This document shows, one piece after another, positions 1,584-51,202 of a stretch of DNA of 51,915 bases (positions within the stretch are counted from its first letter, which is position 1; every line of letters starts with the position of its first letter). The translations under genes and the position numbers were made by a program. The DNA is from a virus (taxonomy: Duplodnaviria > Caudoviricetes). The stretch lies in the IMG/VR virus record IMGVR_UViG_3300006916_000006, positions 1 to 51,915 of that record; one strand, written 5' to 3'. The notes under the pieces are model-generated. The model was not told where the DNA came from and searched no databases. It was given only the letters and a program-made list of their open reading frames with translations.

Positions 1584-1615
1584 TTTTTATTCTCCTTTTG
1601 TTTGGTTGCCTCTAT

Positions 1616-2978: not shown

Positions 2979-3297
2979 CTGACCACATGTCATACTAGTG
3001 GCACACCAGTGGTCAGGTCCAAAAAGCCCCTAGAGTTAGATTTTTCTCTTATATTTCAATATCAATTTCTGTACCTGGTCAAGTGGTATACCAATTTTTG
3101 AAACTTCTAATATAATGCTTTCTAACAGGGCTTACTGTGCTATATATATCACACCCCCTTCTCTACACCCCTAAATACCAACTTATTAGGTTTTATCTAT
3201 ACCACTTGGGCAGCTAGCATAATCAACATTGAAAAAGAATCATTTTTTCTCATTCCGCACCCAAAAAATATCTGACCACTACCCTACCAGTGGTCAG
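2979..3297. repeat. nested inverted repeats in divergent intergenic region (origin candidate)
   Basis: CTGACCAC/GTGGTCAG 2979-3016; CTGACCACT/AGTGGTCAG 3272-3297; CAAGTGGTATA 3080-3090 versus TATACCACTTG 3198-3208. Confidence 0.7.
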
Positions 3298-3311
3298 CCA
3301 CCAAAAAACAT

Positions 3312-3351
3312 GAAAAAACTTCTTGATACCAAAAACACCCCATGTTAAAAT
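3312..3351 (+). promoter_or_regulatory. sigma70-like promoter with adjacent GAAR-N3-YTTC site
   Basis: GAAAAAACTTC (3312-3322), then TTGATA-N17-TAAAAT. Confidence 0.6.
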
Positions 3352-4082
3352 CATATCACCTAAGCAACCCACAACCTATAAGCGAGTATGACCCCATGCA
3401 TCCAAGCCTCACAAACATCCCCACAATAGAAATACCGATGTTCACTTCGCGCCCAAAAGCCACATCACCCACACTGGGGGATATAATAGAAGAGTTAATG
3501 ACATTGCCTTTGCGAACTCCAACCGCATACTTCATGTATGCACCATCACTAACAGTGTCTGACACCAACAACACACCCCGCACCAACACCACCCCCAACA
3601 CACCCAACACCCAAGGCACACCAGAGCAAAACCCTTATTTACTGACGCCCTCACTCCTACCCACACTCCCACTAAGCCCGGAGCCTTTGGCCAACAGCCG
3701 CCGTCAGTACCCTTTACTCAATGACATATGCTGCTACCTCCTTGCCCACTCATCATCCAGTGGCAATTCCTTAACCACTGCGTACCCCCTCTTCGTCAAT
3801 GAGCGCCGCCGCCAGCCTTCTCCGGCGCTGAACTCTCACAGAATGTTTGAACTAACCCAGAAAGTCATCTACGTTGATCTCCCCCATGGCACAAATCGTA
3901 CCCGGAGAAAATTAGCTATGTGTTTATATCTTGTCTCGCGTTTTGCAGCTCCCCCACGGGTGGGCAGTCTGGCGTGGAAAGAATCTCAGAATTTGATGAA
4001 TTGGTTACGGCGAGCGTCTGTGCCTAATGAGAGCGATGGGCGATATAAGAACTCCCCCGCCACCAATATTACCCCCGCCTAG
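3342..4082 (+). CDS. hypothetical Pro/Thr-rich protein (true start probably downstream, near 3397)
   Basis: 246-aa ORF before the primase; the annotated ATG lies inside the promoter. Confidence 0.55.
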   Translation: MLKSYHLSNPQPISEYDPMHPSLTNIPTIEIPMFTSRPKATSPTLGDIIEELMTLPLRTPTAYFMYAPSLTVSDTNNTPRTNTTPNTPNTQGTPEQNPYLLTPSLLPTLPLSPEPLANSRRQYPLLNDICCYLLAHSSSSGNSLTTAYPLFVNERRRQPSPALNSHRMFELTQKVIYVDLPHGTNRTRRKLAMCLYLVSRFAAPPRVGSLAWKESQNLMNWLRRASVPNESDGRYKNSPATNITPA

Positions 4083-4139
4083 CCGCCAACATTACCAAAA
4101 CACACCACCTACAACCCAAACCACAAAGGCACTGCAACC

Positions 4140-7100
4140 ATGCCCTACAAAATCCCACAACCCCCTCTACTCTTCCCGGCACTGACGCCAAAGACATTCT
4201 ATGACTTAAATTGGAATCCATTCCCTGTTCACCCCCCATCATCCCCCGTCTATGAGAACCCCAAGCGCGTCCCTGCCGCAGTCATTAAACATTGCACAAC
4301 GACACCTGCGTCAAACCTACTTCCCCCTGAAGACCAACACCCCTATGAACCTCACTCACTTGTGGGCAAACTGCCCGCCATAGCTGGCTGGCGTGGCAGA
4401 CCCAAACCTGCGGCCTTTATTCCATCTCATTACACTCAGCCACAACCCATGAACATTGGCCTTAATCTGCCAAAGACCATCCTTGTCCTCGACGTCGATA
4501 ATCATAATCCTGACCCACAAAATCCCTCAGAGCCAAACCAGAACCTCCGGCAACTCTGTGAAGACCTTAGCTTAAACGAAGACTATCTGACCCACGTTAA
4601 AACCAAAGACGAAGCGCGTAATGCGACGTGGTTACAATACCTCCTCTCTAATGATTCCCCATCACGCCAGGGGCAACTGCCCGACCACTTCCTGCGTGCC
4701 ATCACTGACCCTAACCTCCACACACCCCCAACACCCCACCCTGCGAAAGCCCACGGTGCGTCATGGGGGTCCTCTTTCTATAAACGTAATCCCATCCCTG
4801 ATGACCTCACAGACGAACACGGTCTTCCTGTCACTGCCCTTGACCTTATGACCCCCTACCGTGTCTTAACCGGCAGCAAACCTCACCCCGGCACACATCT
4901 GGCCTTTCGTATCCCCGCCGAGAAAGCCACACAAATTCGCAAGAATCTCAAATCCTACCCCGGCATTGATTTTCTCAATTACAAATCCATGATACTAGCG
5001 CCAGGTTCTGTCCACCGTAGCAACAACTATTACACCCCATGCCCACTCAACTTCACACCCCCCTGCGAAGACAACCTCATTGGCATCCTTCAATACTTCC
5101 GGGCGTCCCTACCCTTCGATAAGGCTGTCAAACTCAAACCTGAGAAACTTCAGCGTATCCGTGAGACTGAGCCTGAACTATGGCAGAAACTCTGCGACAC
5201 TTACCTACCCCTCCTACACGCTTACACAGCGAGGTTAATGTTATCCTGGACACCACAAGCCCCCGCAGCTCTGTTAAACGTCCTGACAAACAATTATACC
5301 CCACGGCAGTTCCTATTCCCTAAAGGGTTGTCCCCGACCCCCCATGCCTCCACCCTCAGCGACCCAAACACCTCTGACAGCGCCAACCCCCCTATCTATG
5401 AAACACCTGAGTCTATTGATGACCTCTTATCTATCTACCATAACTCCACAGAAACCCCTTATGACACAGACGAAGATGACCCTGAGAATCATGCGACCGC
5501 AGAAGACCTCTTCAAACACGACCCACGCACACACACAGAGGCCACACAACTCTGTAAAACCCACCCTGCGGCCATAGAAGGGTGTGGGGGTAATTTAACA
5601 ACCTTCACACTTGCGGCCAGACTTAACGACCTTCACCTCCATCCCGACACCGCGATGGAACTAATGGAAATCTGGTACAACCCACGTTGCGAGCCACCGT
5701 GGGACTCAACCGAACTTGAGCAAATCATTATCAATGCCTACACCTATTGCCACCGCAAACCTGAGACGGCAAAGCAAACCATCGACCGCCTTTTCCGCGA
5801 GGCCAGAGAACTTGCGGCCTTAACCCAGGAAGCAGAGACCACCACACTGACCAAAGAACAGGCCACACAATCCTCTGCGGATGAATTTGACACCCTCATG
5901 TCTCAATTCATTAAAGACAATGAAAAACTGTCCCCTGTGCCAACGCCCACGCCCACACAGCCCTCTACCCCTGTCCAAACCGCAAAAGAAGAACCCGCAG
6001 AAGAGCCTACCGGTGCGCCCATCACGCAACTGACACCCAAAGAGCGCCCTGACACAGACATACCCCTCTTACCAAACATCCCGCCGTCAGACCTGTACCC
6101 AAAATCATCCCCCGACTCCGGCAAGACCATTTATAGTTTCATGCCTTTAGATGGCCAGCCACACCCAGCAGGGAATCCTCAGACCCGTGTCCCAACAAAA
6201 GACAAGCGCCTTGAAATCTTCAATGAGTATTCTGGCCATCAGACACGGGCAGATATTGAAGAACAACTTGAGTCTGAACGGCGTACATGGATGAACGAAG
6301 TCGAGATCATCACCGATGAAAAGTCCGGTGCGACACGACTCAACCCTGCGCGTAAACTTAAAAATATTTCCCTCTTTTTGACACACCTCGAAGAGTTCCA
6401 GGGATTATTGTCTTATTCAACCTTTGCAAACCAAATCATCGTCACGCGTCCATCACCCATCTTTACAAATCGGATACCCGAACTCTGCCCTCGTAACGCC
6501 AAAAATTTCCCTCACCATATCGGCGTACCCCTCGACGACCGTATTGAAAGCATCATGAAGTCCTACCTTGAGCGTTACTCTCAATTCGGCCTTGATGACC
6601 AAATGCGCGACAGTCTCCTCTATAATGGTATCAGCGTAGGCAAAGACCAATTCACTGAAGCTGTACAAATGGCAGCCTATGCAAACCCATCTCATCCTGT
6701 TAGAGACTACGCCCTTGAGTGTCTTCTCAAATGGGACGGTGAGACACGTTTATTTGATTGGTTGCCTCAGATTGCCAACACAAAAACAGACATCTACACC
6801 CGCGAGACTGGCGCACTTATGATTCAGGCCATCATTGCGCGTGCGTTTAACCCAGGCCACAAGTTTGACTACATGTTTGTCCTCGACGGGGAAGAAGGTG
6901 TGCGGAAGTCAACTTTGTGCCGTACCTTGGCAATACGCCCTGAATGGTTCAAAGAATCTTCTATGGACATTGAAGACCCAAAAAACATCATGGAACAGAC
7001 GCAGTCCTCTCTCGTGGTGGAAATGCCCGAACTTGTGGGGATGTATAAACGTGAAATTGAAGCCATGAAACATTTTATCACCACCACCAGCGACCACGGC

Positions 7101-7844: not shown

Positions 7845-7881
7845 ATAGAGGCAACCAACCATTAACACATAGGAGTTTATC

Positions 7882-9834: not shown

Positions 9835-10383
9835 ATGACAATACGAATCAAATTTCCGGCGGATGCAGACTTGTCTAAAGTTGAGTTAGACGGGCTAGGT
9901 GGGTTAAATGTAACCTGTTTTGAAATGTGCCTTGAACGAGAAGATGAAAGTTTTTGTGATGTCCGACTTCTTGAGGATGTGCGTATTGAGCTGTGCCAAA
10001 GCACCCCCATAGACGTGAATTTCTATGACAGCGTTGGTCGTAAATTAGGCCGCTTTATGTTTTACCTAAAGAAGGAGTCCTCTGTTGAGTACGCGGCCAA
10101 AGACAACACCATCTCTTTATCTGGTTTCCCAGACAAGAAGTTCTTTCCAATGCTTTCTATAGGCTACAAAGCAGGTGTGACCCATTCACGTCACGACCCC
10201 AGAACAGTAACATTCGGTGTTTCAGTGTGCGTCTTCGACACCGAAGAAGACACCTCGGTTTCAGAGGTCGAGGCCGAACTCTCAAAGTATTTCCAGAAAG
10301 CAAGCGTTGAGGGTTTCCTCAAATGTTTGACCCAGCACAGGGAAAAACTAAAGAATACCAAAGCACAACCACAAAATTCTTAA
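9835..10383 (+). CDS. hypothetical protein
   Basis: 182 aa, AAGGAG RBS. Confidence 0.75.
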   Translation: MTIRIKFPADADLSKVELDGLGGLNVTCFEMCLEREDESFCDVRLLEDVRIELCQSTPIDVNFYDSVGRKLGRFMFYLKKESSVEYAAKDNTISLSGFPDKKFFPMLSIGYKAGVTHSRHDPRTVTFGVSVCVFDTEEDTSVSEVEAELSKYFQKASVEGFLKCLTQHREKLKNTKAQPQNS

Positions 10384-10403
10384 CCAAAAAGGAGAAACTA
10401 ACC

Positions 10404-12288: not shown

Positions 12289-12318
12289 ACCTTTGCAACC
12301 AAACAAAGGAGTAACCTT

Positions 12319-15598: not shown

Positions 15599-15630
15599 AG
15601 TAGGGCGCAACTAATAACCAGAAGAGGAAA

Positions 15631-17490: not shown

Positions 17491-17664
17491 ATGGTACAGC
17501 AGGAGATGTTTACAGAAACAAAGAAAGCAGGGGAGATGACACAGTTTCCTTGGGTTATACGCGGAGATTGTGGCGCTCAGATTGCTGAGTTGAAATCAGA
17601 GATTGCGATGTTGCGAGGTGAAATCCGCGATATGCGTAAGTTAGTTAGACAACAGGATGAATAG
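17491..17664 (+). CDS. small coiled-coil protein (not in ORF track)
   Basis: AGGAGG RBS; MVQQEMF...AELKSEIAMLRGEIRDMRKLVRQQDE. Confidence 0.55.
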   Translation: MVQQEMFTETKKAGEMTQFPWVIRGDCGAQIAELKSEIAMLRGEIRDMRKLVRQQDE

Positions 17665-17760
17665 GAGGCTCAGACAAGTAAATGACACAGTAAATCTATG
17701 GCAATTTTATATCGAAATAACGAAAAACAAATAACAAAACGACAAACAAAGGAAACTATC

Positions 17761-18519
17761 ATGTCAAACTACAAATATATTATCCACCAACCTGAAGATA
17801 AGATTCTGATTATCCCTGGGCGACTCGGTTCAAACCCGGTGCGTATGTTCAATGCGAAGAAAGATGATTATGGTAACGAGAAGTACGAGGCCACCATTCT
17901 CTTTGACCAGAACAACGAACGCTACAAAGGTGCGGCGGGTGAAGTTCTGGCGGTGTGGAAGTCTCTGTTCTTCCCATTAATCAATGCAGAAACCAACGAT
18001 GATTTGACAGACGCACAAAAGGCACGCATCCCAGTGCGTTCTGGCAAGGCTATCCTTGAAGCAATCCGTAAGAAAGCAAAACAGAATGGCGAGTACGACG
18101 AAGAAAACTTCATCACCGAAGGGGACTTGCTCGATACTTTGCAAACGCACATGAGCATGAAGGTGAAGGAGCACAAGGTTAATAAAAATCTCGGTATTGA
18201 GAATAAGATGGTTGTTCGTGATATTGACGGCAAAGACCTGACCGTGACCACACTTGGCAAATCCATCAAGGCCGGTGATTATGGTGATTTCCTTGTGCGA
18301 TACTACACCATGGAAGCAAAAGGTGATAAACAAGCCTTGGTGGTGTTTCAACTTGTTGGTTTCCAGAAGACAGAAGATGGTGAACCAATTAAGATGGGTA
18401 AAGTCCAGACTGGTGCGGAACTGGCAAACAAATTCTTCAAGGCAAAGAAAGCTGTCGCTGCGTCAGCCGATGAGGCAGACACTTTGACTGAAGACGACCT
18501 TTCTTCTCTGATTGATTAG
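17761..18519 (+). CDS. single-stranded DNA-binding protein (DUF2815/T7 gp2.5-like)
   Basis: Between DUF2800 and PolA; KYEATILF, FQLVGFQKTEDGEPI, acidic C-terminal tail; start moved to the ATG after AAGGA. Confidence 0.75.
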   Translation: MSNYKYIIHQPEDKILIIPGRLGSNPVRMFNAKKDDYGNEKYEATILFDQNNERYKGAAGEVLAVWKSLFFPLINAETNDDLTDAQKARIPVRSGKAILEAIRKKAKQNGEYDEENFITEGDLLDTLQTHMSMKVKEHKVNKNLGIENKMVVRDIDGKDLTVTTLGKSIKAGDYGDFLVRYYTMEAKGDKQALVVFQLVGFQKTEDGEPIKMGKVQTGAELANKFFKAKKAVAASADEADTLTEDDLSSLID

Positions 18520-18533
18520 AGAAGACACGAAAT

Positions 18534-18624
18534 GGCTGGGGGTCGAGGCACTCCTTTTGGTTCGGTTGCACATTCCTTAGAACCTCCCCTCAGTCGTCCC
18601 TGCGGTGTCAAAAGCCGCAGGGAC
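18534..18624 (+). ncRNA. candidate small antisense RNA: 13-bp stem with 34-nt anti-Shine-Dalgarno loop plus GC-rich 3' hairpin
   Basis: Stem 18534-18548/18583-18595; loop ACTCCTTTTGGTTCGGTTGCA; second hairpin GTCCCTGCGG/CCGCAGGGAC 18596-18624. Confidence 0.55.
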
Positions 18625-18657
18625 ACCCCTTCATTTACATTTAGCCGGAGCTGACGG

Positions 18658-20649
18658 ATGCAAGTTGACATCGACTTTGAGACACGTTCCCATGTGGATA
18701 TTAAGAAGTGCGGCGGCTGGCGATATGCAGAAGATAAAAGCACCGAAATCATCTGCTTATATTACACGATTGATGACAACCCCATAAAAGGTTGGCATCC
18801 ATTGCTGGGCGAACCTTTCCCACAAGATTTGCGCGACGCTGCGGAGAATAAGAACGCTATCTTTTACGCACACAATGCTTTCTTTGAGCGGTGCATCTGG
18901 CGGGAAAAGCTGACCAAAGGTTTAATCTATTTCATAGAAGACAGATTCACCCCTCTGACACTACCAGACATTCCACGCTCGCGCTGGATGTGTAGTGCCG
19001 CAGTCGCCTCCGCTCACGCACTGCCCCGTAAATTAGAAAAACTCTGTCAGGCGCTTAAAACCGCCGCCCAGAAGGACATGAGTGGCAACAGGACAATGTT
19101 AAAGATGTCCAAGCCGCGCAAGCCCACGAAGAATGATAAGTCGCTGTGGCACCATAAGCAGGAAGATTTTGAGAAGGTGTATCAATACTGCGCCGATGAC
19201 GTTGAAGCAGAACACGCATCTTTGCAGGAAGTAAACCCTCTGTCACCCAGAGAGCGCCTTGTGTGGGCAGTTGACCAATGTATCAATGACAGGGGTGTTC
19301 AGGTGGATGTTGAGCTTGCTGAGGCCGCTATGCGGATTCACAAGGCTATGATTAAACGCTACAACACAGAGATTGCAGAGCTAACCGGCGGTGAAGTAAC
19401 CGCAGTGTCTCAGGTGGCAAGATTACTGACGTGGTTTTCGGGGCAAGGCCTGACCGTCAACTCTGTGGACAAAGATGCGTTGGAAACCATCATTGCAAAC
19501 GAAGCATTGCCAGAAACCGTCCGGCGCGTGGCACAGTTGCGGCGTGAAGGAAGTAAGACTTCTGTTGGCAAATACGCCGCAGCATTGCGTGCCGCAGACA
19601 GACCTGGGCGGGTGCACGATTTGCATCTGTATCACGGGGCTGCAACCGGAAGATGGGCTGGCAAACTCGTGCAGACACAAAACCTACCTCGCGGCGTACT
19701 GGCTTCAGAAGAAGCGATGGAAGACGCAGTTGCCGCAATTAAAGCTGAAGACATTGATGCCATTCTTGAAATGGGGCAGGTGTCCACAATTCTCAGTTCA
19801 GCCATCAGGGGGATGTTTATTGCCGCTCCAGACCATGATTTATTTGTGGCTGACTACGCTGCCATTGAAGCCAGAGCCTTGATGTGGCTGGTGGGTGACG
19901 AAAACGCACTGACCATCTTCCGTTCAGGGCAGGACATCTACAAAGACATGGCGGCGACCATTTACAGCAAGAAAGCTGAGGATGTCACTAAAGACGAACG
20001 TCAGCTCGGCAAACAGGCCATTCTCGGCCTTGGCTACGGCATGGGTTGGGCGAAGTTCCTTGAGACTTGTGCCGGGTACGGCATGGATGTGACCGAAGAA
20101 CTGGCTAAGAAGGTTGTGGACGTATTCCGCAGCAAGTATTTCCGCGTGAAAGCATTTTGGTATGCGTGCGAAGAAGCTGCAATTAAAGCCGTTGAAACAG
20201 GTGTGCCGCAGACGGTTGGTTATGTTACTTACCGCGTCAAAGGTAAATTCCTTGAGTGCGTACTGCCCTCCGGTCGCCCGATTCGCTATTACAGGCCATC
20301 AGTGCGTCTGAAGGATACATCGTGGGGTGAAGAGAAAATGACACTTCATTTCTGGGGTACAGATAGCATGACGGGTCAGTGGGTTGAGCAAACGACATAC
20401 TCGGGGAAATTGGTCGAGAATCTTACCCAGGCAGTCGCCCGTGACTTACTCGCGGAAGCCTTAATTGCCGTTGAAACCAGCAAAAAATACCTTCCGGTTC
20501 TTCACGTCCATGACGAAGTTGTGGCTGAGTGCAAGAAAGGCGAAGGTGACGTGCGCGAGTTTGAAGCATTGATTTCTCAAGTACCCACGTGGGCTGAAGG
20601 ATTGCCACTAGAAGCGGAAGGTTGGGTTGGTAAACGATACCGAAAATAG
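18658..20649 (+). CDS. polA: DNA polymerase family A (APSE-like) with 3'-5' exonuclease
   Basis: DIDFETRS, AHNAFFER, ATGRWAG..QNLPR, ADYAAIEAR (motif A), RQLGKQAILGLGYGMG (motif B), LHVHDEVV (motif C). Confidence 0.96.
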   Translation: MQVDIDFETRSHVDIKKCGGWRYAEDKSTEIICLYYTIDDNPIKGWHPLLGEPFPQDLRDAAENKNAIFYAHNAFFERCIWREKLTKGLIYFIEDRFTPLTLPDIPRSRWMCSAAVASAHALPRKLEKLCQALKTAAQKDMSGNRTMLKMSKPRKPTKNDKSLWHHKQEDFEKVYQYCADDVEAEHASLQEVNPLSPRERLVWAVDQCINDRGVQVDVELAEAAMRIHKAMIKRYNTEIAELTGGEVTAVSQVARLLTWFSGQGLTVNSVDKDALETIIANEALPETVRRVAQLRREGSKTSVGKYAAALRAADRPGRVHDLHLYHGAATGRWAGKLVQTQNLPRGVLASEEAMEDAVAAIKAEDIDAILEMGQVSTILSSAIRGMFIAAPDHDLFVADYAAIEARALMWLVGDENALTIFRSGQDIYKDMAATIYSKKAEDVTKDERQLGKQAILGLGYGMGWAKFLETCAGYGMDVTEELAKKVVDVFRSKYFRVKAFWYACEEAAIKAVETGVPQTVGYVTYRVKGKFLECVLPSGRPIRYYRPSVRLKDTSWGEEKMTLHFWGTDSMTGQWVEQTTYSGKLVENLTQAVARDLLAEALIAVETSKKYLPVLHVHDEVVAECKKGEGDVREFEALISQVPTWAEGLPLEAEGWVGKRYRK

Positions 20650-20681
20650 TGCTTGCATAGATGAAATTGTTTCGTTATAAT
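20647..20681 (+). promoter_or_regulatory. sigma70-like promoter with operator; 33-bp identical copy at 36609-36641
   Basis: TTGCAT-N17-TATAAT; GAAATTGTTTC at 20663-20673. Confidence 0.85.
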
Positions 20682-20710
20682 GAAAAGGCAACGCGAACAA
20701 GGAGTTGAAT

Positions 20711-32779: not shown

Positions 32780-33211
32780 TTAGTTTTTTATGTCTTCAAC
32801 CCTTGCGTCAGCGTCGAAGTTGGCGAGGTCTTGGGCTAGTTCAAACGCCTCACTGAACAAAGCGTTCCATGATTCATCTGCGGGGTCAACACCTGCGATG
32901 GTTGTTAAGTTCTCAAAACTGTACGGGACTTTCTTGCCGTCTTTGTCTTTAACTGCCCAGTCTACCCACAATTCTTTGGCAATGAGCGTATGCAGTTTAC
33001 GGTTCAACTCTTTACGCAGGGGTTCATTCTCAACAGCGTTTTTGCCTTTAGCCTTAATCTCTTTTTCAATCTTAGCTGCTTTCAAAACGAAAGGTTTGTA
33101 AGTCGCAGCGCGGGTTTTGATTTCAGTTCCATCCGACAATTCAACCCATGCGCCTTCATACTCAGCTTCAAGGTTACGTTTCAGACCTGCGCCGAAGTTG
33201 ACTTCTGACAT
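32780..33211 (-). CDS. tail assembly chaperone (G)
   Basis: Between tail tube and TMP; EYEGAWV..LWVDW..VPYS..KN end. Confidence 0.85.
   Translation of the reverse strand: MSEVNFGAGLKRNLEAEYEGAWVELSDGTEIKTRAATYKPFVLKAAKIEKEIKAKGKNAVENEPLRKELNRKLHTLIAKELWVDWAVKDKDGKKVPYSFENLTTIAGVDPADESWNALFSEAFELAQDLANFDADARVEDIKN
32783..32789 (-). other. -1 programmed ribosomal frameshift site A-AAA-AAC
   Basis: X-XXY-YYZ heptamer just before the chaperone stop; the -1 frame is open into 32379..32729. Confidence 0.8.
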
Positions 33212-33217
33212 AAATAA

Positions 33218-33273
33218 TCTCCTGTGGTTTTATGTTACCACAGGAGACTACTATAAAGAAGTTATTTCGTCAA
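33218..33273 (-). promoter_or_regulatory. internal promoter, operator and RBS-sequestering hairpin
   Basis: TTGACG-N17-TAGTCT; operator at 33258-33268; 11-bp inverted repeat 33218-33228/33237-33247 containing AGGAG. Confidence 0.6.
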
Positions 33274-33278
33274 TAAGA

Positions 33279-34433
33279 CTAGGTGTACTTGGTCACTGAT
33301 GCCGTTGCAACCTGTGTTGGGTCGAGAACCGCAGTAAAGGACATCGCGTCCTGAAGATCAGAGTTGACCCCTTGGTTGTTGTTACTTCCATCTGTGATAT
33401 AGACTTGAGGGAAATCCCACACATATCCATCACCGTTGCTGTCTTCCGTTACAATTGCGAGATCAATAGCCGTGAAGTTACGTTTGAAGTCATCAAAGGT
33501 CTTATCTTCTTTGAACACTGTGAAGTTGCCACTCACGCCGATGGAACGTTGGTTCACTGCGATGTTTGTCAGACTGCCAATCGCACGCAGGGCTTCCGCG
33601 TTTGTGGTGATGGAGAAGTCCAAAGACGCAAAGTCTGCTGTGGATAGCGCGCCGTTCACATAGATGGCTTTGATGTCATTCACCGTATTCATGCTCGGTG
33701 AGGTAGAAGCCGCAGTGTGTGAGCCAGAGAAGCCACTGGACGTTGCATACACACCGTTACGACCAATCAGGCTCAGAGAGCCTCCAGCCAAGTCAGACGT
33801 ATTGAAGTTCAAGTTCAACGTGTTCACCTTCATACCTGTGAACAGTTGATACTGAGTGATGTCAGCCAAAACACGTTCAAACGTGAACGATTTTTCCGTC
33901 GTAGCGTTTTCGAGGTACTGGCCTTTCAGTGTGATGGATTCACCGGCTGTTTCATCCGTCACTGTGCCGTGAGACAGAATCAGTTTTGATGTGCTGGACT
34001 TTGTGGCAACTTTGAACCAGCCGTCGTTTGTGCCACTGGTTGTGCCAGAAATTTTCAACCACTGACCTTCCTGCACATCACCAAAACCTGCACCTGAGTC
34101 ATTCACCGAGTTATCAGAGTTGGCAAAGCTGATGGTTGTAGCCGTGTCTGTGTAGGACGTGGCATAAGTGCCACGCAGTACAGCCTCAAGGAATGGGTCG
34201 AGTTCCGCGTACTGCAATTCTACACCAATGTCGCCGGTTACGGTCAGACCAGTACGAATTGTACCCGCAATGTTGGTGTCAGAACGAACAATGTTTGAGT
34301 TTGTTGTCTCGTTGGATACGTTCAGGGAGTTATTGGTGAAGTTGAGATACGTTGCCGCACCAGCGGGGTTCGTGCCTTCCGTGACTTCTACTTTATAGAG
34401 CAGTGACTCTCTGTTTGCTGATGCGATGGCCAT
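33279..34433 (-). CDS. major tail tube protein
   Basis: 384 aa, Phage_tube_2-like (GDIGVEL..LDPFLEAVLRG; SFTFER; FTGMKVN; YVWDFP). Confidence 0.88.
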   Translation of the reverse strand: MAIASANRESLLYKVEVTEGTNPAGAATYLNFTNNSLNVSNETTNSNIVRSDTNIAGTIRTGLTVTGDIGVELQYAELDPFLEAVLRGTYATSYTDTATTISFANSDNSVNDSGAGFGDVQEGQWLKISGTTSGTNDGWFKVATKSSTSKLILSHGTVTDETAGESITLKGQYLENATTEKSFTFERVLADITQYQLFTGMKVNTLNLNFNTSDLAGGSLSLIGRNGVYATSSGFSGSHTAASTSPSMNTVNDIKAIYVNGALSTADFASLDFSITTNAEALRAIGSLTNIAVNQRSIGVSGNFTVFKEDKTFDDFKRNFTAIDLAIVTEDSNGDGYVWDFPQVYITDGSNNNQGVNSDLQDAMSFTAVLDPTQVATASVTKYT

Positions 34434-36560: not shown

Positions 36561-36608
36561 AGCGGTGAGTTTAGCACAGATTTTTTATTCTCGCCAACTA
36601 TGTGCAAT

Positions 36609-36643
36609 TAGTGCTTGCATAGATGAAATTGTTTCGTTATACT
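36609..36643 (+). promoter_or_regulatory. sigma70-like promoter with operator driving the + strand island
   Basis: TTGCAT-N17-TATACT; 33 bp identical to 20647-20679. Confidence 0.85.
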
Positions 36644-36789
36644 GGAGGGGCAACAGGAACAAGGAGATTTAACAATTTATGACGGGAGGAGCGGCGCGCA
36701 AAAATATAGGGCGGGGCGCAAATTATGGCAGGTGAGCGAGGGTAATTGACTACGCCACCTGCCACCAACATTAACAAAGTGAGGATGAG

Positions 36790-40330: not shown

Positions 40331-40946
40331 ACGCCGCCACCATACCAACACACAGGCCGCTAAGCAATTCAGATACGTTCACCGCTAGCTTGTCGCTATC
40401 CTTGCGCCAGAATAGCCCTGCAAAGCGATAGGATGCACCAAAGGCAACCGCTAACAGGGGCAGCACAAGAACAAGGAGGGGGTTAGAAAAATACGCCCCC
40501 ACGGCCACCAATGGTGCAAATCGTACCAATGCGTCAAAGGTCATCCATATCTGGCCATATAAACGCATGGAAGAGGGTTTATCAGGGTTCGGAGTCCCGT
40601 CAGTAATCTTCTTATATACCCACTGTGCAGGGCGGTCTTTCCACCATTTCTGCCCCTTAGGGGATTCGTAAACATCGTTGCCCAGCTCGTTACCATGAAT
40701 GGCCAGAAAACCCCTGCCCCATCCAAAGGCAACCGCCCAGCATAAAGCCACAGCTAAGGCCACGCTATGCTGCCATATATCCGTTAGGAACAGGTAGTGT
40801 AGCCCTGCCATGTATAGCGCATAAGGATACTTGCCTGTAATCCAATCCAGCCACTTTGGAGCGCCGTAATCAGAATAGGTAATGCCCCGCATATAGCGCC
40901 ACAGCAGGCCGAAGATGATAGCATAGGTGGCTTGGGACAGAATCAT
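40323..40946 (-). CDS. multi-pass membrane protein
   Basis: 207 aa with several hydrophobic segments, Trp/Gly-rich. Confidence 0.75.
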   Translation of the reverse strand: MILSQATYAIIFGLLWRYMRGITYSDYGAPKWLDWITGKYPYALYMAGLHYLFLTDIWQHSVALAVALCWAVAFGWGRGFLAIHGNELGNDVYESPKGQKWWKDRPAQWVYKKITDGTPNPDKPSSMRLYGQIWMTFDALVRFAPLVAVGAYFSNPLLVLVLPLLAVAFGASYRFAGLFWRKDSDKLAVNVSELLSGLCVGMVAAYV

Positions 40947-44169: not shown

Positions 44170-44508
44170 TTATTCATCCGCTGCCAAGGATGCCTCAATG
44201 GCTTCGATGATGTCGGCTTTCTTTGACGCGCCGGAAAGGTCAATGCCTTCATCGTCAGCGTACACTTTCAGCTCTGCAACTGTCATTGCCTGAAAATCAA
44301 TCTGTGCGGATTCCATTTCGCGCTCAAAAGCGACTTCAAAAGCTGACTTTTTTGGCTCAGTTGTTTCCGGGAGGCAGATATAACCTTCATCAAACAGAGA
44401 ATCTACATACTGGTCAGGTACTTCTGTGACTTCACCGCGCTTGAAAAGGGCGGGTTTCGCATCGGGTTCGATACGCGCTTTGAAAGTGGTGAGAATTTTT
44501 ACAAGCAT
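44170..44508 (-). CDS. protein with C-terminal HeH/Rho-N-like domain
   Basis: MTVAELKVYADDEGIDLSGASKKADIIEAI; start moved to the ATG after AGGAG. Confidence 0.75.
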   Translation of the reverse strand: MLVKILTTFKARIEPDAKPALFKRGEVTEVPDQYVDSLFDEGYICLPETTEPKKSAFEVAFEREMESAQIDFQAMTVAELKVYADDEGIDLSGASKKADIIEAIEASLAADE

Positions 44509-44575
44509 GAGAGTCTCCTGAATTTTGTAAGTGTGCGCGGGGAGTAACATACCCCCCGCACATCATTTGTCACCG

Positions 44576-44992
44576 TTAGGCAACAGGTGACTCGGATGGG
44601 TGTCCGAGTACAGCAAACGCAGCCAGAGGCGCGTCCCCTGAGTTACCCGCAGGGGTGATGGTCAGGCGCACATAACGCTTGCTGCCAGTGTAACCCAGTT
44701 TACGGGTTGTGTTGTCAGCAGCGAATGTGAAGCTCGCACCTGCTTCTGTGCCGATAAGGTCGCTATCAGCAACCGCAGCAGCGTCAGAAAGGGCGCTGTT
44801 ATCACCTTCTTCCAGCAGCACAGTGAAGGTAGCGTCAGCGTCAGCCAGCGTACCTGTCAGGATGCCGAAAGTCACAGAGCCGTAGCCCTGTGTGTCGATG
44901 ATTTCACTCACCAGCGCGGTATTGTCAGTCGCAACAACAGGGGAAATGCCGCGAACAATCCCAATGTCATTGTAGAGGTCCATATTAGCCAT
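44576..44992 (-). CDS. capsid decoration/cement protein
   Basis: Directly after the MCP; IDTQGY..TVLLEEGD..LSDA..GYTGSKRYVRL. Confidence 0.75.
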   Translation of the reverse strand: MANMDLYNDIGIVRGISPVVATDNTALVSEIIDTQGYGSVTFGILTGTLADADATFTVLLEEGDNSALSDAAAVADSDLIGTEAGASFTFAADNTTRKLGYTGSKRYVRLTITPAGNSGDAPLAAFAVLGHPSESPVA

Positions 44993-51020: not shown

Positions 51021-51202
51021 ATTATAACATAGAAGAAAATTCTGTATAGGGGTGGGGTGCGGGAAGTTATTTCTTTATACTAAAAAATTTGTGTTAGTTG
51101 GGATTGGGATAAGAGAATTTATTTCTATATACTGATTTTTCTGAGTTAGTTGGGGTTGAGCGAAGTTACTTCTATATACTAAAAATTTTACATTAGTTGG
51201 GG
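51021..51202. repeat. array of three ~40-bp imperfect repeats each starting with the GAAR-N3-YTTC motif, plus an extended -10 for terL
   Basis: Units at 51063, 51115, 51162 (GAAGTTAYTTC-TWTATACT...TTAGTTGGG); a fourth motif at 51032; TGTTATAAT on the - strand 6 nt before the terL ATG. Confidence 0.85.

What the first reader, a model, noticed from the sequence alone, without database searches (positions are those of the whole stretch)
18534..18624. Intergenic hairpin whose loop is antisense to the shared leader/RBS of the phage's own promoter-proximal genes: candidate trans-acting sRNA
Seen: between ssb and polA a 13-bp stem presents a 34-nt loop containing ACTCCTTTTGGTTCGGTTGCA (18550-18570), followed by a 10-bp GC hairpin. 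The reverse complement, TGCAACCGAACCAAAAGGAGT, closely matches leaders after separate promoters: GGCAACCAAACAAAAGGAGA (1591-1610, - strand), TGCAACCAAACAAAGGAGT (12294-12312), GGCAACGCGAACAAGGAGT (~20687), GGCAACAGGAACAAGGAGA (~36649), and the RBS AACCAAAAAGGAG (10382-10394). No start codon follows the motif at normal spacing on the - strand, so it is not a working RBS there. Known: anti-SD loop sRNAs occur in Alphaproteobacteria (cuckoo-type CCUCCUCCC loops). Inference: an RNA made with the replication genes shuts off translation of early mRNAs through two seeds (anti-SD and anti-GCAACC).
Basis: partly seen in the sequence, partly recalled or inferred. Interest (0 to 1): 0.78.

Follow-up and report, generated by a model that had tools for sequence, protein, structure and literature searches.

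The report
Phage hairpin loop mirrors own leaders
Between a phage's DNA-binding-protein gene and its DNA polymerase gene sits an RNA hairpin whose open loop is the mirror image of the short leader that starts most of the phage's early messages, so it may be an RNA switch for them, but this is not yet shown.

Summary
The 138-nt ssb-polA spacer of this complete 51.9-kb freshwater phage folds, on the + (mRNA) strand, into three hairpins: H0 18502-18525 across the ssb stop, H1 18534-18595 (13 bp, 34-nt loop) and H2 18596-18624. Loop bases 18551-18569 are the reverse complement of the +1-to-Shine-Dalgarno leader behind the phage's sigma70-type promoters. I found seven such promoters, all with GCAAC at the predicted start.

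By chance, such a match is expected 0.007-0.16 times per genome, depending on the measure. It is the best non-trivial anti-leader among 14,824 windows.

There is no own promoter, no U-tract terminator and no Rfam family, and the 40-codon ORF looks non-coding. So this is not a classical sRNA gene. It is an element inside the operon mRNA.

Five relatives also carry a stem-loop right after their gp2.5-like ssb gene, so H2 is ordinary. H1's loop is the unusual part.

My odds: functional anti-leader pairing about 0.4, purely cis structure with a coincidental match about 0.4. Neither conservation nor expression could be tested.

The parts
17698..18519 (+). Upstream gene: an Enc34/T7 gp2.5-like single-stranded-DNA-binding protein with an acidic C-terminal tail. 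Gene callers mostly start it at 17761 (252 aa).
   Evidence: Pfam Enc34_ssDNA-bd gives only E 0.0077, below its cutoff. The Atlas feature score is 0.95 and structure TM is 0.51-0.69 to PF10991 clusters. The order exonuclease-SSB-polA matches L002, L003 and L014. Cluster members are listed.
18502..18525 (+). H0: a 10-bp hairpin spanning the ssb TAG stop codon (18517-18519).
   Evidence: (I21), 31 and 81: -11.4 kcal/mol on the + strand, -9.5 on the - strand.
18534..18595 (+). H1: a 13-bp stem (2-nt bulge, two G.U pairs at 18535.18594 and 18539.18590) closing a 34-nt loop (18549-18582).
   Evidence: -21.6 kcal/mol on the + strand against -15.9 on the - strand. The G.U pairs become C.A mismatches on the - strand.
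18550..18570 (+). Anti-leader segment of the H1 loop. It is the reverse complement of leader positions -1 to +19, made of an anti-SD part (ACUCCUUUU) and an anti-5'-end part (GGUUGC).
18596..18624 (+). H2: a GC-rich 11-bp hairpin with a 7-nt loop, abutting H1, with no U-tract after it.
   Evidence: I18; -19.7 kcal/mol. It resembles the U-tract-less GC hairpin at about 44530-44560 (-), and stem-loops sit after ssb in relatives.
18625..18657 (+). Single-stranded tail. It holds an A/U-rich stretch (ACAUUU 18637-18642) and the polA Shine-Dalgarno GGAG at 18647-18650, 7 nt before the ATG at 18658.
   Evidence: Read directly and unpaired in the fold. Calling this a possible RNase E site is an inference from a recalled consensus.
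18658..20649 (+). Downstream gene: family A DNA polymerase.
   Evidence: PHROG phrog_17 at E 7e-110. Pfam DNA_pol_A at E 5.8e-30.
1592..1609 (-). P1609 leader, GCAACCAAACAAAAGGAG. This is the closest leader to the loop's reverse complement (2 edits).
   Evidence: total -18.6 kcal/mol.
12295..12311 (+). P12295 leader, behind TTGACA-18-TATACT.
   Evidence: -15.3 kcal/mol.
20688..20704 (+). P20688 leader, directly after polA.
   Evidence: -14.6 kcal/mol.
36650..36666 (+). P36650 leader. Its promoter is nearly identical to that of P20688.
   Evidence: -11.6 kcal/mol.
7851..7877 (+). P7851 leader (GCAACCAACC...AGGAG).
   Evidence: -12.9 kcal/mol.
15607..15627 (+). P15607 leader. This is the 5' end of the operon that itself contains ssb, H0-H2 and polA.
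   Evidence: -14.8 kcal/mol.
3364..3388 (+). P3364 leader. It is the weakest promoter match and shares only GCAACC with the others.
   Evidence: E 0.2-0.4; -10.7 kcal/mol.

Best explanation
The element is an RNA structure module inside the polycistronic early/middle transcript that starts at promoter P15607. That transcript runs 219-aa gene, exonuclease, 57-aa ORF, SSB, then H0-H1-H2, then DNA polymerase.

H0 and H2 are ordinary post-ssb stem-loops. I infer that they protect the 3' end of the abundant SSB message and damp expression of the polymerase cistron behind it.

H1 is a display hairpin. Its 13-bp stem holds open a 34-nt loop, and loop bases 18551-18569 are complementary to the leader of the phage's sigma70-type transcripts, from the first transcribed nucleotide (GCAAC) through the Shine-Dalgarno sequence.

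I commit to this reading: the loop pairs with those 5' leaders, occludes the ribosome site of the first cistron, and covers the mRNA 5' end. As SSB-operon RNA accumulates, translation (and possibly stability) of the promoter-proximal genes falls.

The active species would be the ssb mRNA 3' region itself, or an H1-H2 fragment released by cleavage in the A/U-rich tail. It would not be an independently transcribed sRNA.

Shown: the structure, its strand bias, the complementarity and its rarity, and the absence of a promoter, terminator or coding signal. Inferred: any pairing in vivo, the processing, and the regulatory outcome.
For: 1. Fold. H1+H2 fold much better than shuffles and better on the + strand: z -3.40 against -1.52, and -45.0 against -36.8 kcal/mol. 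Two G.U pairs work only in + strand RNA.
2. Match to the leaders. The loop's reverse complement is 2 edits from the 18-nt P1609 leader, expected 0.025 times per shuffled genome. Its summed duplex energy with 7 leaders is -150.4 kcal/mol, against -69.5 +/- 10.7 for 1000 shuffled loops, none of which reach it.
3. Genome rank. Of 14,824 35-nt windows on both strands, only 9 pair better with five leaders, and all 9 are the leaders' own antisense strands. The loop scores -115.5 and the next unrelated site -95.7. A tail fit expects 0.007-0.03 such sites.
4. Pairing register. With accessibility included, 6 of 7 promoter-proximal start regions are in the top 7 of 77. All 7 best duplexes begin at the predicted +1, with totals of -10.7 to -18.6 kcal/mol.
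5. Similarity stops at the transcribed part. A profile of positions -48 to -1 of the 7 promoters recovers 6 of them (E 7e-8 to 2e-5) but gives no hit on 18571-18625(-) at E up to 1000. That fits an RNA-level relation better than a copied promoter cassette.
6. Conserved 5' end. GCAAC at +1 is invariant in all 7 promoters even where the rest of the leader differs, and the loop carries GGUUGC.
7. Spacer size. The 138-nt spacer is unusually long for this tightly packed operon and holds no promoter.
8. Precedent. P1/P7 c4 RNA uses loops complementary to the ribosome-binding region of a target in its own operon (PMC12197685, section 9 read).
Against: 1. Single genome. There is no conservation or covariation data. 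The only close relative seen is an X11 contig (about 8% nucleotide divergence, SSB 94% identical), and its differences in the spacer were not displayed.
2. No expression data. No RNA run was listed.
3. No sign of a discrete RNA. There is no promoter, no U-tract terminator and no known family.
4. Chance is not negligible by the most conservative measure. 26 of 200 shuffled genomes have some site within 2 edits of any of four leaders, and the real genome has a second such site (40463-40478) that looks accidental.
5. Overlap with generic sites. Predicted energies for leaders (-11 to -18) touch those of generic strong AAGGAG sites (-9 to -13).
6. Imperfect fit. At the position where the two closest leaders have A, the loop has C rather than a U that could pair with both A and G.
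7. A simpler reading exists. Stem-loops after ssb are found in all 5 relatives examined, and similar hairpins follow other genes in this phage, so a cis role alone could explain why structure is here.
8. The start sites of the leaders are predicted, not mapped.
Confidence: 0.4

Rival explanations
1. Purely cis-acting structure. H0-H1-H2 only stabilise the 3' end of the SSB message and attenuate or insulate polymerase expression (partial termination, a processing site, or an exonuclease block). The loop's complementarity to the leaders is then a coincidence of an anti-SD-like U/C-rich loop meeting a low-complexity A/C-rich leader.
For: - A strong stem-loop follows the gp2.5-like ssb gene in 5 of 5 relatives examined. 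PaMx74 has an annotated canonical terminator and Donnerlittchen a hairpin followed by T9. L002 and L003 have 17- and 14-bp GC hairpins without a U-tract directly before polA. L014 has a hairpin plus a U-rich tail.
- This phage has other GC hairpins after late genes. One lies between the tail-tube-position gene and the tail chaperone gene (33215-33250). Another follows the gene just downstream of the major head gene (about 44530-44560) and has no U-tract.
- Nothing marks a discrete sRNA.
- 13% of shuffled genomes (26 of 200) contain some site within 2 edits of a leader.
Against: - H2 alone would do this job. This reading gives no reason for a 34-nt open loop in a compact genome.
- It does not explain why that loop is the best non-trivial anti-leader of 14,824 windows.
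- It does not explain why the match begins at the predicted +1 and ends at the SD.
- The chance of such a match falling in the sense strand of non-coding sequence is far below the genome-wide figure (inference).
Confidence: 0.4
2. DNA-level relic or site. Either the minus strand holds a decayed copy of the phage's promoter-leader cassette, or the shared GCAACC...AAC motif is an operator for a DNA-binding regulator. In both cases the RNA complementarity is only a by-product.
For: - On the - strand, an exact TTGACA (in H2's loop) is followed 24 nt later by TCTAAG. That is 5 of 6 matches to P1609's TATAAG, and it sits the family's 6 nt before GCAACC.
- Promoter cassettes are duplicated elsewhere in this genome: P20688 and P36650 are nearly identical over about 45 nt.
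Against: - The promoter profile gives no hit here at E up to 1000.
- The spacer is 24 nt, not 16-18, and the -10-like hexamer lacks A2 and T6.
- The best-kept part is the transcribed leader including AAAAGGAG, which a DNA operator would not need.
- No start codon follows on the - strand.
- The fold favours + strand RNA.
Confidence: 0.08
3. Coding sequence. Either a 40-codon ORF (18532-18654), or a stop-codon read-through extension of SSB. The ssb gene, this ORF and polA all share one reading frame.
For: - The frame is open for 44 codons after the ssb TAG and ends 3 nt before the polA ATG. All three are in the same frame.
- Structured RNA sits just downstream of the stop codon.
Against: - The codon-usage score is -0.12 per codon. 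Only 0.2% of in-frame 40-codon windows of the phage's long genes score that low, while 33% of out-of-frame windows score as high.
- There is no Shine-Dalgarno sequence, in a genome where most genes have AAGGAG-type sites.
- The ATG abuts the H1 stem.
- No Pfam or PHROG family matches.
- None of the 5 ORFs overlapping the spacer exists in the 15-billion-protein collection, although ssb and polA do.
Confidence: 0.03

Closest known systems
c4 antisense RNA of phages P1 and P7
   Same: It is phage-encoded. Complementary sequences sit in loops of a structured RNA. The target is the ribosome-binding region of an mRNA, and the regulator is made from the same operon as its target (PMC12197685, section 9 read; PMC8198154, passages).
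   Different: c4 belongs to a lysogeny immunity circuit and targets one operon (icd-ant). Here the putative targets are the shared 5' leaders of about seven transcription units of a phage with no sign of that circuit. No Rfam family, C4 included, matched the spacer. That Rfam holds a C4 model, and that c4 is processed by RNase P, are recalled and not tested.
IS10 RNA-OUT / RNA-IN pairing (recalled, not read here)
   Same: The loop of a stable hairpin pairs with the extreme 5' end of the target mRNA and covers its ribosome-binding site.
   Different: RNA-OUT is cis-encoded, so it is perfectly complementary, and it has its own promoter. This element is trans-encoded, imperfect (17 of 19 at best) and embedded in an operon mRNA.
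T4 RegB endoribonuclease (and RegA)
   Same: The proposed outcome is the same: the phage's own early messages are inactivated at their Shine-Dalgarno sequences as infection proceeds. RegB cuts GGAG in early translation-initiation regions (PMC3014915, passages).
   Different: RegB and RegA are proteins. Here the agent would be RNA, and specificity would come from the 5'-terminal GCAAC plus the SD.
Post-ssb terminators and intercistronic stabiliser hairpins
   Same: The position is the same, directly after a gp2.5-like ssb gene, as in PaMx74, Donnerlittchen, L002, L003 and L014. T4 gene 32 mRNA is likewise unusually stable and processed (PMC3014915, passages).
   Different: H1 adds a large open loop with leader complementarity. 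No U-tract follows H2, and no promoter follows either, so polA must be read through from upstream.
   Same: C/U-rich anti-SD sequence is presented by a hairpin.
   Different: No Rfam family matched. The loop motif is ACUCCUUUU, while the CCUCC-type run 18583-18591 forms part of H1's 3' stem arm rather than a loop. The host is unknown.

Membership tests
Rfam families (all 4227, which by recollection include the C4 antisense RNA and the anti-SD sRNA families) | A match to a covariance model | tested here: not met
   There were 0 matches at gathering score over the whole window. On 18440-18720 at E up to 10 there were only three chance-level hits (E 0.95-2.7, 13-15 bits against gathering scores of 37-80).
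Intrinsic (Rho-independent) terminator | A GC-rich stem-loop | tested here: met
   H2 has an 11-bp stem at -19.7 kcal/mol.
Intrinsic (Rho-independent) terminator | A U-tract immediately 3' of the stem | tested here: not met
   H2 is followed by ACACCCCUUCAUUU. The terminator scan does not list H2.
Independently transcribed trans-acting sRNA | Its own promoter | tested here: not met
   The promoter profile gives no + strand hit between 15611 and 20642 apart from 18201-18229 at E 28. The consensus scan shows only two 9-of-12 sites inside ssb.
Independently transcribed trans-acting sRNA | A discrete RNA species that accumulates | not testable with these tools
   All 13 listed runs are DNA.
Base-pairing antisense regulator (function, not family) | An accessible seed complementary to the target translation-initiation regions, better than controls | tested here: met
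   The opening cost is 4.3 kcal/mol, 0 of 1000 shuffled loops do as well, and 6 of 7 promoter-proximal sites are in the top 7 of 77.
Base-pairing antisense regulator (function, not family) | Conservation or covariation of seed and targets in relatives | not testable with these tools
   No relative above 42% polA identity exists in the searchable collections. The difference table for the X11 relative stopped at 18075.
Protein-coding small gene | A ribosome-binding site, gene-like codon usage, and homologues | tested here: not met
   
The phage's own sigma70-type promoter cassette (minus strand) | -35 and -10 hexamers at 16-18 nt spacing that match the family profile | tested here: not met
   The arrangement is TTGACA-24-TCTAAG. 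The profile gives no hit at E up to 1000.
tRNA or tRNA-like element | A cloverleaf detected by ARAGORN | tested here: not met
   ARAGORN found 0 genes in the window.

The most novel reading that the evidence does not exclude
A freshwater siphophage carries a 'universal anti-leader' inside its SSB-polymerase operon mRNA. This is a hairpin loop that base-pairs, from the very first transcribed nucleotide to the Shine-Dalgarno sequence, with the shared leader of all its host-polymerase-driven transcription units. Accumulation of the replication-operon RNA would then shut down, or hand over to nucleases, the promoter-proximal early messages. That would be an RNA counterpart of T4 RegB/RegA. It would also explain why GCAAC is invariant at +1 of seven promoters.
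Probability: 0.4. Interest if true: 0.8.

Novelty: new variant of a known kind. Interest (0 to 1): 0.55.

Why it matters
Phage antisense RNAs described so far mostly control one lysogeny or lysis gene, or host genes. This is what sections 4 and 9 of the review PMC12197685 cover. My three text searches turned up no phage RNA aimed at a leader shared by the phage's own promoters.

If H1 works as proposed, it would be a compact, genome-wide temporal switch built from one 19-nt loop. It would give a function to the conserved initial transcribed sequence of a promoter family. It could also be searched for in other phages: look for the reverse complement of the shared leader in sense-strand intercistronic loops.

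If it does not work that way, the case is a useful caution. Low-complexity leaders and anti-SD-like loops can mimic regulation.

Tried and rejected
Known families.
- Rfam at gathering score and at E up to 10: nothing.
- ARAGORN: nothing.

Search for relatives.
- DNA search of the phage collection, near and distant modes: no match.
- SSB protein found no relative in viral contigs, phage records, genome contigs or the fetched loci.
- PolA found only relatives at 42% identity or less.
- Exact promoter patterns in viral contigs: 0 hits.
- The loop pattern hit one viral contig, L033. That hit lies inside a gene of an unrelated AT-rich phage and is chance.
- A covariance model of H1+H2 found only itself in 252,222 bases, covering the window and 29 loci.

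Expression. No RNA holder was listed.

Read laying. Runs X9 and X10 are identical to the window where they cover it. X11 holds a relative with 173 differences and no gaps over 17600-19694.

Methods dropped.
- Co-folding cannot model loop-to-strand pairing. I replaced it with duplex energy plus opening energies.
- The raw duplex ranking is inflated by interior loops and is not used.
- The regex best-match flag missed sites. I replaced it with a dynamic-programming edit-distance scan.

Other ideas rejected.
- Replication origin: there is no GC-skew shift near 18.5 kb.
- Cis pairing of the loop with the polA SD: only 4 bp (CUCC with GGAG), judged by eye, and the SD is unpaired in the fold.
- The second leader-like site at 40463-40478(+) encodes LLVLVL of a membrane protein on the other strand and is taken as chance.
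- The paper PMC10914365 held none of the terms I searched for.

Full report
**What the window is.** The window is a complete virus record of 51,915 bp with direct terminal repeats and 48.7% GC. It was seen only in freshwater and aquatic DNA metagenomes.

The left 22.7 kb, mostly on the + strand, holds replication and recombination genes. These include a primase-helicase, two helicases, an exonuclease, a family A DNA polymerase and a RuvC-like resolvase. The rest encodes siphovirus-type structural genes on the - strand: terminase, portal, protease, major head protein, a tail gene, a tail chaperone and the tape measure.

The 273-aa gene ending at 18519 has no confident Pfam or PHROG hit. I accept it as a gp2.5/Enc34-like SSB for these reasons:
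- the Atlas feature score is 0.95 and structure TM is 0.51-0.69 to PF10991 clusters;
- it has an acidic C-terminal tail;
- the gene order exonuclease, SSB, polA is shared with L002, L003 and L014, whose middle gene is phrog_112 'Gp2.5-like SSB'.

The 138-nt spacer 18520-18657 folds on the + strand into three hairpins.
- H0 (18502-18525) spans the ssb stop codon.
- H1 (18534-18595) has 13 bp with a 2-nt bulge and a 34-nt loop at 18549-18582.
- H2 (18596-18624) has 11 bp and a 7-nt loop, and it abuts H1.

The fold beats 200 of 200 shuffles (z -3.4) on the + strand, but reaches only z -1.5 on the - strand. H1 has two G.U pairs that would be C.A mismatches in - strand RNA. After GC correction, the two windows covering H1+H2 rank 28th and 34th of 5180. 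So the region is among the most structured in the genome but is not unique. Late-gene spacers at about 33200-33290 and 44500-44590 are as strong.

A consensus scan anchored on GCAAC shows seven sigma70-type promoters of the form TTGACA/TTGCAT, then 16-18 nt, then (C)G(C/T)TATAMT, then N6, then GCAAC. They lie at 1609(-), 3364, 7851, 12295, 15607, 20688 and 36650.

GCAAC, at the predicted start, is invariant in the alignment. Four leaders (P1609, P12295, P20688, P36650) run straight on to AAC-AA(A)GGAG.

A profile of the seven promoter regions recovers six of them at E 7e-8 to 2e-5. It finds nothing on the + strand between 15611 and 20642 except a hit at E 28. So ssb, the hairpins and polA lie in one transcription unit that starts at P15607.

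**How unusual is the antisense match?** Loop bases 18551-18569 are the reverse complement of GCAACCGAACCAAAAGGAG. That is 2 edits from the P1609 leader and 3 from P12295.

Three measures of chance were made.
- Edit distance. In 200 dinucleotide-shuffled genomes, a site that close to P1609 occurs 0.025 times per genome. 26 of 200 shuffles hold some site within 2 edits of any of four leaders. The real genome has one further such site (40463-40478), inside a membrane-protein gene.
- Shuffled loops. The loop's summed duplex energy with the seven leaders is -150.4 kcal/mol, against -69.5 +/- 10.7 for 1000 shuffled loops. None reach it.
- Genome scan. Among 14,824 35-nt windows, only the leaders' own antisense strands (9 windows) pair better with five leaders. 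The loop scores -115.5 and the next unrelated site -95.7. An exponential tail fit expects 0.007-0.03 such sites.

With opening energies included, six of the seven promoter-proximal start regions fall in the top 7 of 77. When leaders are modelled from the predicted +1, all seven best duplexes start at +1 and total -10.7 to -18.6 kcal/mol. The ranges touch those of generic AAGGAG sites (-8.8 to -12.9), so the advantage is real but not large.

**What it is not.**
- Not a known RNA family and not a tRNA.
- Not a canonical terminator, because no U-tract follows H2.
- Not an independent sRNA gene, because there is no promoter.
- Not convincingly a gene. The 40-codon ORF 18532-18654 is in frame with both ssb and polA, which is curious. 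However, its codon score (-0.12) is matched by only 0.2% of in-frame windows of real genes. It also lacks a ribosome site, and no gene caller in the 15-billion-protein collection called it or four other spacer ORFs.
- Not a recognisable promoter on the - strand. TTGACA and a TATAAG-like TCTAAG are present, but they are 24 nt apart and the promoter profile is silent there.
- No GC-skew change suggests an origin of replication.

**Comparative context.** No relative close enough for covariation is in the searchable collections. A covariance model of H1+H2 finds only itself.

More distant relatives are still informative about position. All five that I examined have a stem-loop right after the gp2.5-like ssb gene.
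- PaMx74 has an annotated canonical terminator, and Donnerlittchen has a hairpin followed by T9.
- L002 and L003 have long GC hairpins without a U-tract, 10-12 nt before polA.
- L014 has a hairpin with a U-rich tail.

In this phage, GC hairpins also follow the tail-tube-position gene and the gene just after the major head gene, and the second of these has no U-tract. The first of these sequesters the next gene's SD with a cis anti-SD arm. So H2, and probably H0, are ordinary. What has no counterpart is H1's large open loop.

**The one close relative.** Run X11 holds a 12,999-nt contig that matches 17600-19694 with 173 substitutions and no gaps. Its SSB is 94% identical, 238 of 252 residues. 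The spacer length is therefore conserved.

**Mechanism and odds.** The similarity covers the transcribed leader only. It starts at +1, ends at the SD, sits in an accessible loop on the mRNA strand, and is rare by several nulls. So I think functional RNA pairing is the single most likely account of the loop, at about 0.4.

In that account the regulator is the ssb mRNA 3' region or a processed H1-H2 fragment. It masks the ribosome site and the 5' end of promoter-proximal messages. The reverse direction, in which abundant leaders pair with the loop and alter polA expression or trigger cleavage, fits the same data.

A purely cis structural module with a coincidental loop is about equally likely, at about 0.4. 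A DNA-level relic or operator (0.08) and coding (0.03) trail behind.

**Closest known systems.**
- P1/P7 c4 RNA is the nearest phage precedent, with loops complementary to a ribosome-binding region in the same operon (PMC12197685, sections 4 and 9 read; PMC8198154, passages).
- IS10 RNA-OUT pairs a hairpin loop with an mRNA 5' end (recalled, not read here).
- T4 RegB is a protein-based route to the same outcome (PMC3014915, passages).

The element failed the Rfam membership test. My searches and the review sections I read describe no phage RNA aimed at a leader shared by the phage's own promoters. Supplementary tables of those papers were not available to me.

**Verdict.** If true, it is a new variant of a known kind. 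Interest 0.55.

Noticed in passing
window 1609(-), 3364, 7851, 12295, 15607, 20688, 36650: Seven sigma70-type promoters share an invariant GCAAC exactly 6-8 nt after the -10 hexamer, at the predicted transcription start, even where the rest of the leader differs. A conserved initial transcribed sequence is unusual for host-polymerase promoters.
   Followed up: partly
window 20642-20692 and 36604-36654 (+): These two promoter regions are nearly identical over about 45 nt (GTGCTTGCATAGATGAAATTGTTTCGTTATAMT). Their -35 region reads TGCTTGCA rather than TTGACA, so they may form a separate promoter subclass.
   Followed up: no
window 33211-33250 (-): A 14-bp hairpin lies between the tail-tube-position gene (33279-34433) and the tail assembly chaperone gene (32780-33211). 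Its 3' arm contains the chaperone gene's AGGAG, and its 5' arm is a cis anti-SD. This looks like a translational attenuator.
   Followed up: partly
window about 44530-44560 (-): A 13-bp GC hairpin without a U-tract lies between genes 44576-44992 and 44170-44508, about 20 nt before the next ribosome site. It has the same style as H2.
   Followed up: no
window 17698-20649 (+): The ssb gene, the 40-codon spacer ORF and polA all lie in one reading frame, separated only by TAG (18517-18519) and TGA (18652-18654). Codon usage says the spacer is non-coding.
   Followed up: yes
window 40463-40478 (+): A second leader-like 16-mer (2 edits from the P36650 leader) lies antisense to a membrane-protein gene, where it encodes LLVLVL. 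It is probably chance.
   Followed up: partly
window 3001-7000: GC skew is strongly negative (down to -0.38) over the 1215-aa primase-helicase gene, far beyond the rest of the genome.
   Followed up: no
window 3136-3154, in the 348-nt gap 2994-3341: A TATATATA-centred palindrome (TGTGCTATATATATCACA) lies in the divergent region between the leftward and rightward early genes. It could be an operator or an origin.
   Followed up: no
window 51052-51085 and 51158-51184 (+): The promoter profile gives two weak extra hits near the right end (E 0.02 and 0.064).
   Followed up: no
run X11, contig of 12,999 nt over window 17600-19694: A related phage about 8% divergent in DNA (173 substitutions, no indels; SSB 94% identical) exists in an aquatic metagenome from 2025. 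It is the natural material for a covariation test.
   Followed up: partly
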